Source of the DNA: a phage
Sequence record: KM389369.1
Length of the DNA stretch: 315 bases
Reading direction: 5' to 3' (one strand)
This document shows, piece after piece, positions 1 to 315 of the stretch (positions are counted from its first letter, which is position 1; each line of letters opens with the position of its first letter). The translations under genes were made by a program, and so were the position numbers. The notes under the pieces are model-generated. The model was not told the DNA's origin and searched no databases. It saw nothing but the letters and a program-made list of their open reading frames with translations.

Positions 1-314
1 ATTACGTCCCCTAAGTCCCCCCGTAACGTTTTGGTTACGTCCCCTTTGGACCGGACCGGAACCGACCGGGTACCCCGGTTCCCCGGCCGTACGTTTCCCG
101 TCGGGTTACGTCGTACCGCACGCTGTCCGCCCAGCCTCAGCCATGTCTTGCATGAGTTGAACATCTCCCCACGCTTGTTAAGCATCTGCGGGTCAGTAGA
201 CGCGCCACCGAACGGAACAAGTTGCCATGTACGCCCCCAACCATCACCGATTGACTTCAAACCGGTTCCGTAACCGAAGTCGATGAACACCGCGTCAGCC
301 TGGTACTGGTCTTC
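1..314 (-). CDS. Partial CDS, hypothetical protein; frame open across the entire window (truncated at the 3' end, possibly also at the 5' end)
   Basis: Reverse-complement frame with codons ending at window 314, 311, ... has no stop in 104 codons; the other two minus-strand frames carry several stops. Translation (N to C): EDQYQADAVFIDFGYGTGLKSIGDGWGRTWQLVPFGGASTDPQMLNKRGEMFNSCKTWLRLGGQRAGRRNPTGNVRPGNRGTRSVPVRSKGDVTKTLRGDLGDV. The first ~60 residues (window ~140..314) have mixed hydrophobic/polar/aromatic composition typical of a folded protein; the remainder is R/G/N/V/T-rich and low complexity. An in-frame GTG at 288..290 (minus strand) preceded 8 nt upstream by AGG is a possible but weak start; otherwise the CDS begins beyond position 315. 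Third-codon-position GC is moderately enriched. No homology search was possible. Confidence 0.4.
2..45. repeat. Exact 11-bp direct repeat TTACGTCCCCT (2..12 and 35..45) with a degenerate tandem copy TAAGTCCCC (12..20)
   Basis: Read directly: 2..12 and 35..45 are both ttacgtcccct (33 bp apart, start to start). 3..11 tacgtcccc is followed immediately by 12..20 taagtcccc (1 mismatch), forming a tandem 9-mer pair. Confidence 0.7.
22..39. repeat. Short inverted repeat CGTAAC (22..27) / GTTACG (34..39) with 6-nt spacer GTTTTG
   Basis: Read directly; arms are exact reverse complements (6 bp). The right arm overlaps the second TTACGTC copy. The T-run lies in the loop, not 3' of the stem. Confidence 0.55.
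51..89. repeat. CCGG-dense dyad-symmetric tract: perfect 7-bp inverted repeat GGAACCG (58..64) / CGGTTCC (76..82) flanking palindrome GGGTACCC (68..75); five CCGG sites and one CGGCCG
   Basis: CCGG at 51..54, 56..59, 66..69, 75..78, 83..86; GGGTACCC at 68..75 is an exact 8-bp palindrome; CGGCCG at 84..89; reverse complement of 76..82 equals 58..64 exactly. Confidence 0.6.
104..112. repeat. Third copy of the TTACGTC core (GGTTACGTC, identical to 33..41)
   Basis: ggttacgtc occurs at 33..41 and 104..112; the TTACGTC core therefore occurs three times on the plus strand (2..8, 35..41, 106..112). Confidence 0.65.
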
Positions 315-315
315 A

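What the first reader, a model, noticed from the sequence alone, without database searches (positions are those of the whole stretch)
1..139. Low-complexity Arg/Gly-rich translation coincides with the DNA repeat cluster: coding tail, embedded cis-site, or non-coding?
The same minus-strand frame stays open through 1..139 but encodes QRAGRRNPTGNVRPGNRGTRSVPVRSKGDVTKTLRGDLGDV, which looks disordered. The DNA here is dominated by short direct and inverted repeats. Three explanations are possible: (a) a genuine disordered linker or tail; (b) a cis-acting DNA site (origin or operator) embedded within a gene, as ori-lambda lies within the lambda O gene; (c) non-coding DNA where stop-poor GC-rich sequence keeps the frame open by chance, implying a frameshift or a gene end that the window does not show. 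Plus-strand frame 1 is also open from 1 to 273, showing that stop-codon absence alone is weak evidence here.
Basis: inference. Interest (0 to 1): 0.5.

Follow-up and report, generated by a model that had tools for sequence, protein, structure and literature searches.

The report
Sequencing noise fused to terminase gene
The "Arg/Gly-rich tail" is not a protein feature: bases 127-315 are a genuine piece of an E. coli phage terminase gene, and bases 1-126 are orphan sequence that follows the nucleotide flow order of a 454-type sequencer, most likely base-calling noise, so the finding is an artefact.

Summary
Window 127-315 (minus strand) is 100% identical to Escherichia phage Phi05_1387 B and 96% identical to phiV10. 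It encodes residues ~351-413 of the 491-aa terminase large subunit (TerL). Homology stops at 126/127. All 63 IMG/VR relatives and 505 of the 508 E. coli genomes carrying this stretch read straight through that point into the conserved TerL C-terminus (MLDDQETADDL...). The window instead has 126 nt with no DNA or protein relative in any collection searched.

The in-frame "tail" has non-coding codon usage, below 99.3% of true phiV10 coding windows. Its open frame is unremarkable: about 24% chance per minus frame, and three of six frames are open.

In 1-126, 70% of non-homopolymer steps go to the next base of the T>A>C>G cycle. That is the 454 / early Ion Torrent flow order. The right part scores 34%. 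Natural windows score 30 ± 5.5%, with a maximum of 56% among 6,825. This bias explains the stop-poor frames, the small word set and the short direct and inverted repeats.

Read on the minus strand, the window uses 393 flows, or 401 with a 4-base key. A GS FLX run has 400.

Verdict: a technical artefact joined to a truncated terL fragment. It is neither a coding tail nor an embedded cis-site.

The parts
127..315 (-). Genuine fragment of the terminase large-subunit gene (terL) of a phiV10/epsilon15-type (Uetakevirus) E. coli phage. Codons ~351-412 plus the first two bases of codon 413, out of 491. In frame from base 314.
   Evidence: 100% identical to KM389362, 96% to phiV10 and 82% to epsilon15, under features annotated as terminase large subunit. 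phiV10 TerL matches phrog_2, terminase large subunit, E = 3e-52. Among 58 relatives, 22 of 27 variable sites are at third codon positions. Codon log-odds +21.6 over 62 codons.
126..127 (.). Breakpoint. Homology to every terL relative ends between these two bases. In phiV10 the gene would continue for another 238 nt (79 aa).
   Evidence: Alignment with Phi05_1387 B and phiV10. 63 of 63 IMG/VR relatives continue with ...CATCCAGCAT(G/C) or ...CATCAAGCAT(G/C) here. 505 of the 508 E. coli genomes with this stretch cover at least 80% of a query spanning the point.
1..126 (.). Orphan sequence of 64% GC that follows the T>A>C>G nucleotide flow cycle. Interpreted as base-calling noise at the 3' end of a flow-based (454 / early Ion Torrent) read taken on the minus strand. 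Not coding and not a cis-element.
   Evidence: No match in phages, plasmids, E. coli genomes, IMG/VR or JGI metagenomes. No protein relative in any frame. 70% 'next-in-cycle' steps, against 30 +/- 5.5% in 6,825 natural windows (max 56%). Positive-flow fraction 0.71, against 0.48 +/- 0.023. Step sizes fit independent positive flows (chi-square p = 0.28) and reject a uniform distribution (p = 9e-11).
2..12 (+). Copy 1 of the 11-nt direct repeat TTACGTCCCCT. As a flowgram this is T2 A1 C1 G1 T1 C4 T1.
   Evidence: A repeat of 11 nt or more is marginal against dinucleotide shuffles (p = 0.044).
35..45 (+). Copy 2 of the 11-nt direct repeat TTACGTCCCCT.

Best explanation
The window is a true read, or small contig, of the terL gene of a phiV10-like E. 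coli phage, taken on the minus strand (315 down to 127). Its last 126 bases (126 down to 1) are not template sequence. They are what a flow-based sequencer (Roche 454, or early Ion Torrent; nucleotide flow order T, A, C, G) outputs when about 65-70% of flows are called positive. The result is runs such as TTACGTCCCC, GTACG and CCGG that step through the flow cycle with variable homopolymer lengths.

Three by-products follow from this:
- Only TAA can be written without skipping a flow, so the stretch is stop-poor and several frames stay open. One of them happens to be in phase with terL and translates as an Arg/Gly/Val-rich peptide.
- The word set is small.
- The cycle is its own reverse complement, so short direct and inverted repeats appear.

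Shown: the breakpoint, the lack of any relative, the non-coding codon usage and the flow-cycle bias. Inferred: that the cause is sequencer noise, and which platform produced it.
For: Breakpoint and missing C-terminus:
- Homology to terL stops exactly at 126/127, while all relatives continue into the conserved C-terminus.

No relatives for 1-126:
- No DNA match in INPHARED phages, PLSDB plasmids, 5,426 complete E. coli genomes, IMG/VR or JGI metagenomes. In the GTDB species genomes the only matches are the searched 11-mer itself.
- No protein relative in any of six frames.
- No Rfam family, tRNA, promoter or terminator.
- Folding is no better than shuffles.

Non-coding signal:
- Codon log-odds of the in-frame tail is -1.4 over 41 codons. 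True phiV10 coding windows average +14.1 +/- 5.7, and only 0.66% score that low.

Flow-cycle bias:
- 53 of 76 non-homopolymer steps go to the next base of the TACG cycle (binomial P = 1e-10).
- The other five possible base cycles score 0.11-0.39, and the terL part scores 0.34.
- None of 6,825 natural 126-nt windows reaches 0.70, and none of 43,622 natural 80-nt windows reaches 0.62. The left part scores 0.70-0.74 in 80-nt windows.
- Positive-flow fraction is 0.71, against 0.48 +/- 0.023 in natural windows (max 0.61).
- Step sizes of 53/15/8 fit a model of independent positive flows and reject a uniform distribution.

Read-length coincidence:
- Read on the minus strand, the window consumes 393 TACG flows, or 401 with a 4-base key.
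- A GS FLX run has 400 flows revealed in the order TACG, and noise rises toward read ends (Quince et al. 2011, PMC3045300).

Context:
- The only 100% relative is an 'UNVERIFIED ... clone contig00003' record. That naming style is, to my knowledge, Newbler's (the 454 assembler).
Against: - The switch from perfect terL sequence to noise is abrupt. 454 dephasing is usually gradual. The first 27 flows after the junction are only 59% positive.
- No adaptor sequence is recognisable at the junction.
- The flow count with key is 401, not 400 or fewer, so the window cannot be an unedited single 400-flow read.
- The platform of the source is unknown, and no quality values or flowgrams are available.
- The T>A>C>G cycle is also the alphabetical A>C>G>T cycle. 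A computational or synthetic origin would leave the same signature.
- Natural DNA can contain the word TTACGTCCCCT(TT). It is the core of REP-like repeats in several bacterial lineages.
Confidence: 0.7

Rival explanations
1. Real biological junction. The end of an uncharacterised mobile element or other foreign DNA has inserted into, or recombined with, terL of a Uetakevirus prophage. Candidates are a REP-like element associated with a Y1 transposase, or an integrative element whose repeated TTACGTC(CCC) words are recombinase-binding sites. On this reading 1-126 is non-coding element DNA and terL is inactivated.
For: The junction is sharp. There is an 11-nt direct repeat plus partial copies, TAAGTCCCC at 12-20 and GGTTACGTC at 104-112. 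The same 11-14-mer is the core of repeats that flank IS200-like Y1 transposase genes in inverted orientation in Massilia/Duganella and other lineages. Two other public contigs have rearrangement junctions within 20 nt in the same gene.
Against: No related sequence beyond 14 nt was found anywhere. The match to the REP-like cores is circular, because they were found by searching for that 11-mer. The repeats are barely above dinucleotide-shuffle expectation and the inverted repeats are not. No natural window approaches the flow-cycle bias. None of 508 E. coli genomes or 63 IMG/VR contigs has anything inserted at this site. GC is 64%, against 49% for the phage.
Confidence: 0.1
2. Library or assembly chimera. 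A true terL fragment was joined in vitro or in silico to a true but unsampled natural sequence from another organism, for example a repeat-rich intergenic region of a GC-rich bacterium.
For: The source is very short (315 nt) and the junction is unique and abrupt. Other short contigs of this terL in public assemblies also carry odd junctions or frameshifts.
Against: The left part is far outside the range of natural DNA for flow-cycle bias. None of 43,622 natural 80-nt windows reaches 0.62, and this includes GC-rich and REP-rich loci. It has no relative in about 600 Gb of species genomes for the repeat pattern, nor in JGI metagenomes for two 21-22-mers.
Confidence: 0.1
3. Computer-generated or synthetic filler whose symbols drift through the alphabetical order A, C, G, T, appended to a natural terL fragment. 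It would have no laboratory origin.
For: The cycle favoured is also the alphabetical one. There is no natural relative.
Against: It does not explain why the whole window comes within one flow of the 400-flow length of a GS FLX run. It also does not explain why step sizes fit independent flow calls. It cannot be tested with these tools.
Confidence: 0.06
4. Genuine coding sequence: a disordered Arg/Gly-rich C-terminal extension or alternative C-terminus of TerL. Alternatively, a cis-acting origin or operator embedded in the gene, as ori-lambda lies in the O gene.
For: The frame stays open in phase with terL across the junction.
Against: The conserved 79-aa TerL C-terminus is replaced, not extended. 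There are no homologues of the tail; the two hits in 1.84e9 proteins are score inflation on proteins with 16-17 tandem repeats. Codon usage is non-coding. An open frame is expected by chance about 24% of the time. The DNA is absent from this position in all relatives. There is no array of iterons and no AT-rich region.
Confidence: 0.02

Closest known systems
Terminase large subunit (TerL) of Uetakevirus phages (phiV10 PhiV10p02, epsilon15, TL-2011b)
   Same: Window 127-315 is 96-100% identical in DNA to E. coli members and 82% to epsilon15. It has the same frame, and relatives show third-position substitution.
   Different: The window lacks the last 79 residues, which are conserved in all relatives. 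In my reading these include the ...GRSPGKGDALLLTFAFP... segment of the nuclease domain. Unrelated sequence takes their place.
Flow-order noise in 454 pyrosequencing or early Ion Torrent reads (flow order TACG; 400 flows in GS FLX; noise rising toward read ends; Quince et al. 2011, PMC3045300; Huse et al. 2007, PMC2323236)
   Same: Steps follow the TACG cycle. The positive-flow fraction is 0.71. The stretch sits at one end of a read-length sequence whose total is 393 flows, or 401 with key. It has no natural relative.
   Different: The onset is abrupt, no adaptor is visible, the flow count is one above 400, and the platform of the source is not known.
ori-lambda inside the lambda O gene
   Same: Short repeats lie inside an open reading frame.
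   Different: ori-lambda's iterons are part of a conserved, functional coding sequence (my own knowledge). Here the repeat-bearing DNA is non-homologous to the gene and absent from all relatives. It carries only two exact 11-nt copies and is GC-rich.
REP / REPIN elements mobilised by RAYT (IS200-like Y1) transposases
   Same: The word (G)TTACGTCCCCTT(T/G) is identical to the core of REP-like repeats that flank Y1_Tnp genes in Massilia, Duganella and other lineages.
   Different: The window has no hairpin around the core, no inverted pair and no similarity outside the core. The resemblance was obtained by searching for that very word.

Membership tests
Terminase large subunit (for 127-315) | Sequence homology to annotated or profiled TerL | tested here: met
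   96-100% DNA identity to features annotated as terL. phiV10 TerL matches phrog_2, E = 3.4e-52. It has no Pfam hit.
Terminase large subunit (for 127-315) | Coding-type substitution pattern in relatives | tested here: met
   22 of 27 variable sites are at third codon positions among 58 relatives.
Terminase large subunit (for 1-126) | Continuation into the conserved C-terminal 79 residues | tested here: not met
   About 30% ungapped identity to the natural sequence, which is random level. The peptide is unrelated.
Disordered coding tail or linker | Homologues sharing the tail, and host-like codon usage | tested here: not met
   No real homologues. Codon log-odds -1.4, below 99.3% of coding windows.
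Cis-site embedded in a gene (ori-lambda type) | Repeats lie within sequence that is still homologous coding DNA in relatives; several regularly spaced iterons | tested here: not met
   The region is absent from relatives. It has only two exact 11-mers (p = 0.044), and the only tandem array is a weak GGACC x4.
Insertion sequence or transposon end | Match to known elements; terminal inverted repeat and target-site duplication | tested here: inconclusive
   No match in E. coli genomes, plasmids or phages. The second end and any duplication cannot be seen in a 315-nt window.
Group I or II intron, or intein, in terL | Intron RNA structure, or intein motifs in frame | tested here: not met
   No Rfam match at E <= 10 except two chance hits. 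No Pfam or PHROG match for the in-frame product.
REP / RAYT repeat | Palindromic unit, inverted pairs, many genomic copies, RAYT gene in the genome | tested here: not met
   No hairpin around the cores, and folding is no better than shuffles. All copies are direct. The genome context is not available.
Flow-sequencing noise | Base steps follow the instrument's flow cycle, and the positive-flow fraction lies above the natural range | tested here: met
   70% next-in-cycle steps and 0.71 positive flows. No natural window comes near. The step sizes fit independent flow calls.
Flow-sequencing noise | Located at the 3' end of a read whose flow total equals the run length | tested here: inconclusive
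   393 flows, or 401 with a 4-base key, against 400 for GS FLX. This is off by one, and the window may be a contig rather than a single read.
Flow-sequencing noise | Low quality values or ambiguous flow signals in the raw data; platform is 454 or Ion Torrent | not testable with these tools
   No raw reads, quality values or provenance are available.

The most novel reading that the evidence does not exclude
Bases 1-126 are real DNA: the end of an unknown mobile or REP-like element whose repeated TTACGTC(CCC) words are binding or cleavage sites for an HUH/Y1-type or other recombinase, inserted into the terL gene of a phiV10-like prophage. That would be a first case of such an element disrupting a phage packaging gene. 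Its core would be shared with REP-like repeats across several bacterial phyla.
Probability: 0.07. Interest if true: 0.4.

Novelty: not a real feature. Interest (0 to 1): 0.05.

Why it matters
It matters mainly as a caution. A frame that stays open in phase with a real gene, and that lies over apparent repeats, looked like a disordered tail or an embedded origin. It is best explained as instrument noise. A simple test separates it cleanly from natural DNA: the fraction of base steps that follow the sequencer's T>A>C>G flow cycle. That test could be used to screen short contigs from older 454 or Ion Torrent data sets before they are annotated. If the junction were real after all, it would mark an inactivated terminase gene and an unknown inserted element.

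Tried and rejected
- Searched 1-126/1-140 by blastn (word 11) in phages, plasmids and E. coli genomes. Only chance 25-45-nt GC-rich hits appeared.
- Ran exact-word scans of IMG/VR (four patterns, including the junction itself) and JGI metagenomes (two patterns). Nothing was found.
- Ran a repeat-pattern scan of GTDB species genomes. It gave 32 loci that share only the 11-14-nt core. Some are REP-like repeats next to Y1 transposase genes. I judge the resemblance coincidental for this window.
- Tested the mirror-image (reversed, not complemented) sequence as a possible spike-in-type decoy. No match.
- Tested all 24 base permutations against the natural terL continuation, as for a colour-space decoding error. 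Identity stayed at random level, 35% at most.
- Compared base composition with the natural 126 nt. The left part is not a shuffle of it.
- Looked up the window's own products by exact sequence. Neither is on record.
- Searched the tail against 1.84e9 representative proteins. The two hits (E = 7e-26 and 4e-18) are artefacts of 16-17 tandem repeats in the targets.
- Searched a concatenate of all six frames of 1-126 against 5.8e9 protein clusters. Nothing was found.
- Ran Rfam, tRNA, promoter/terminator and tandem-repeat scans, and RNA folding of both strands. Nothing was above chance.
- Asked whether 126/127 is a rearrangement hot spot. Two other contigs break within 20 nt, but 505 of 508 E. coli genomes and 63 of 63 IMG/VR contigs are intact there, so I rejected the idea.
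- Literature searches for the 10-mers and for the Phi05 records gave nothing relevant. A search for the vendor's 'mixed read' filter also failed.

Full report
**What is in the window**

The six-frame translation confirms that the minus-strand frame starting at base 314 is open over the whole 315 nt. It reads EDQYQADAVFIDFGYGTGLKSIGDGWGRTWQLVPFGGASTDPQMLNKRGEMFNSCKTWLRLGG, followed by QRAVRRNPTGNVRPGNRGTRSVPVRSKGDVTKTLRGDLGDV.

**The right part is a terminase gene**

- blastn against phage records matches only bases 127-315 (124-315 for distant relatives). Identity is 100% to Escherichia phage Phi05_1387 B (KM389362), 96-97% to phiV10 and its relatives, and 82% to epsilon15. All matches lie under features annotated as terminase large subunit.
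- In phiV10 the match falls at nt 1050-1238 of the 1,476-nt terL gene, which then continues for another 238 nt.
- The phiV10 protein matches PHROG 2, terminase large subunit, with E = 3e-52.
- Among 58 IMG/VR relatives, 22 of 27 variable sites in this stretch are third codon positions. This stretch is ordinary coding DNA.

**The breakpoint**

- Alignment with Phi05_1387 B and phiV10 shows that identity collapses exactly between bases 126 and 127.
- All 63 IMG/VR contigs that carry the 30-mer at 127-156 continue upstream with the normal terL sequence. Their ungapped identity to window 1-126 is 29-32%, which is random level.
- Of the 508 complete E. coli genomes holding this part of terL, 505 cover at least 80% of a query that spans the point.
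- At the protein level every homologue continues after KTWLRLGG with MLDDQETADDLSAAEYKVRVDGKIVIEPKEDIKERLGRSPGKGDALLLTFAFP.... In relatives that continuation also shows third-position variation, at 14 of 16 variable sites.
- The window's "tail" therefore replaces a conserved 79-residue C-terminus rather than extending it.

**Is the tail coding?**

- A phmmer search of the 42-residue tail against 1.84 billion representative proteins gave two hits. Both are proteins of about 1,300 aa built from 16-17 tandem repeats, where a weak 19-24-residue resemblance is counted many times. They are not homologues.
- A concatenate of all six frames of 1-126 found nothing among 5.8 billion protein clusters.
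- I built a codon table from 19 phiV10 genes. The terL part scores +21.6 log2 odds over 62 codons. The in-frame tail scores -1.4 over 41 codons. True coding windows of that length average +14.1 ± 5.7, and only 0.66% score as low as the tail. The natural continuation scores +20.9.
- In dinucleotide-preserving shuffles of 1-126, a given minus frame is open 22-24% of the time and a plus frame 41-44%. Three of six frames are open in the real sequence.
- The open frame carries almost no information. The coding-tail reading is rejected.

**Is it an embedded cis-site or a known element?**

- The DNA is absent from this position in all relatives, so it is not a site embedded in the gene.
- It matches nothing in INPHARED phages, PLSDB plasmids or 5,426 complete E. 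coli genomes.
- It matches nothing in IMG/VR or in JGI metagenomes.
- Rfam at E ≤ 10 gives two chance hits.
- There is no tRNA, promoter-like or terminator-like site.
- Both strands fold slightly worse than their shuffles.
- The repeats are weaker than they look. The longest direct repeat (TTACGTCCCCT, 2-12 and 35-45) is matched in 4.4% of dinucleotide-preserving shuffles. The longest inverted repeat (8 nt) is matched in 83%.
- What is abnormal is the vocabulary. The dinucleotides CC, CG, GT, AC, TT, GG and TA dominate, while AT, AG and CA occur once each and GC three times. This gives 50 distinct 4-mers, in the lowest 0.2-0.4% of natural windows.

**The decisive observation**

The favoured dinucleotides are either "same base" or "next base" in the cycle T>A>C>G>T.

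| Measure | Window 1-126 | Comparison |
|---|---|---|
| Non-homopolymer steps to the next base of the cycle | 53 of 76 (70%; binomial P = 1e-10) | 34% in 127-315 |
| Same measure for the other five possible cycles | 11-39% | n/a |
| Same measure in 6,825 natural 126-nt windows | n/a | 30 ± 5.5%, maximum 56% |
| Same measure in 43,622 natural 80-nt windows | 0.70-0.74 | none reaches 0.62 |
| Fraction of positive flows when written as a TACG flowgram | 0.71 | 0.48 ± 0.023, maximum 0.61 |

- The numbers of one-, two- and three-flow steps (53/15/8) fit independent positive flows with p of about 0.64-0.71 (chi-square p = 0.28). They reject a uniform distribution (p = 9e-11).
- TACG is the order in which 454 pyrosequencing reveals bases. 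A GS FLX run has 400 flows, and noise rises toward read ends (Quince et al. 2011, PMC3045300).
- Read on the minus strand, the whole window consumes 393 flows, or 401 with a four-base key. The junction falls at about flow 292.
- The only 100% relative is an UNVERIFIED record named "clone contig00003". To my knowledge this is the naming style of the 454 assembler.

**How this explains the finding**

- Only TAA can be spelled without skipping a flow; TAG and TGA need skipped flows. The stretch is therefore stop-poor on both strands. Five of its six stop triplets are TAA. Frames stay open by construction.
- The small set of words (ACGT, GTAC, CCGG, TTACGT, GTCCCC) yields short direct repeats.
- The cycle is its own reverse complement, so it also yields short palindromes and inverted repeats.
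- The Arg/Gly/Val-rich peptide is simply the translation of CGN, GGN and GTN-rich noise.

**Caveats**

- The change from perfect sequence to noise is abrupt. The first 27 flows after the junction are only 59% positive.
- No adaptor is recognisable at the junction.
- The flow count with key is 401, one above 400, so this is not an unedited single GS FLX read.
- The platform of the source is unknown.
- The same cycle is the alphabetical A, C, G, T order, so a computational origin would look alike.
- I therefore put 0.7 on sequencer noise, about 0.06 on synthetic filler, 0.1 on a chimera with unsampled natural DNA, 0.1 on a real insertion or rearrangement, and 0.02 on any coding or embedded-site reading.

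**Side lead that did not explain the window**

- I scanned 185,579 species genomes for two copies of the 11-mer 12-32 nt apart. This returned 32 loci in at least 14 unrelated lineages.
- In these loci TTACGTCCCCT, often followed by TT, is the constant core of short tandem or palindromic repeats whose flanks differ by lineage.
- In Pseudoduganella sp. (L003) and Duganella sp. (L031) contigs, inverted copies flank a gene with an IS200-like Y1 transposase domain, PF01797, E = 1.3e-11. Homologous ORFs lie within 3 kb of the repeat clusters in Thiotrichaceae, Massilia and Phycisphaerales contigs.
- This looks like a REP/RAYT-type system. Similarity to the window does not extend beyond 14 nt, and it was obtained by searching for the window's own word. 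I treat it as coincidence for this finding and record it separately.

**Verdict**

The feature itself is not real biology. Bases 127-315 are a truncated fragment of a well-known phage gene. Bases 1-126 are most likely flow-order noise. Interest is low.

Noticed in passing
L003 2087-2907; L031 3448-4297; also L004-L034 (genome-contig loci): TTACGTCCCCT(TT) is the invariant core of short tandem or palindromic repeats whose flanks differ by lineage. It occurs in at least 14 unrelated bacterial lineages, including Planctomycetota, Clostridiales, Burkholderiales, Thiotrichales, Deltaproteobacteria, Nostocaceae and Priestia. In L003 and L031, inverted copies flank an IS200-like Y1 transposase (RAYT-like) gene. 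The flanks are often complementary, which places the core in a hairpin loop. It is not in Rfam. It may be a cross-phylum REP/RAYT family. No control scan with other 11-mers was possible.
   Followed up: partly
L099 480-736 (ENA metagenome contig, 736 nt); L100 100-246 (E. coli WGS contig, 246 nt): Two other short public contigs carry junctions in the same terL gene, 3 nt and about 20 nt beyond the window's breakpoint. L099 joins to a region with a LexA-box-like CTGTATAAATATACAG. L100 joins to unrelated AT-rich coding-like sequence. Complete genomes show no hot spot at this site.
   Followed up: partly
Proteins P0004, P0023, P0024 (Logan contigs); one IMG/VR relative among L036-L098: Several database 'proteins' of this terL are frameshifted read-throughs; P0024 continues in the window's minus frame 3. 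One IMG/VR relative has an in-frame stop (GDG*GRTW). Public short contigs of this gene often carry sequencing errors or pseudogene lesions.
   Followed up: no
window 48-69: A weak pentanucleotide array (GGACC x 4.4, 76% matches) is the only tandem repeat Tandem Repeats Finder reports. It lies inside the flow-order-biased stretch and is probably part of the same noise.
   Followed up: no
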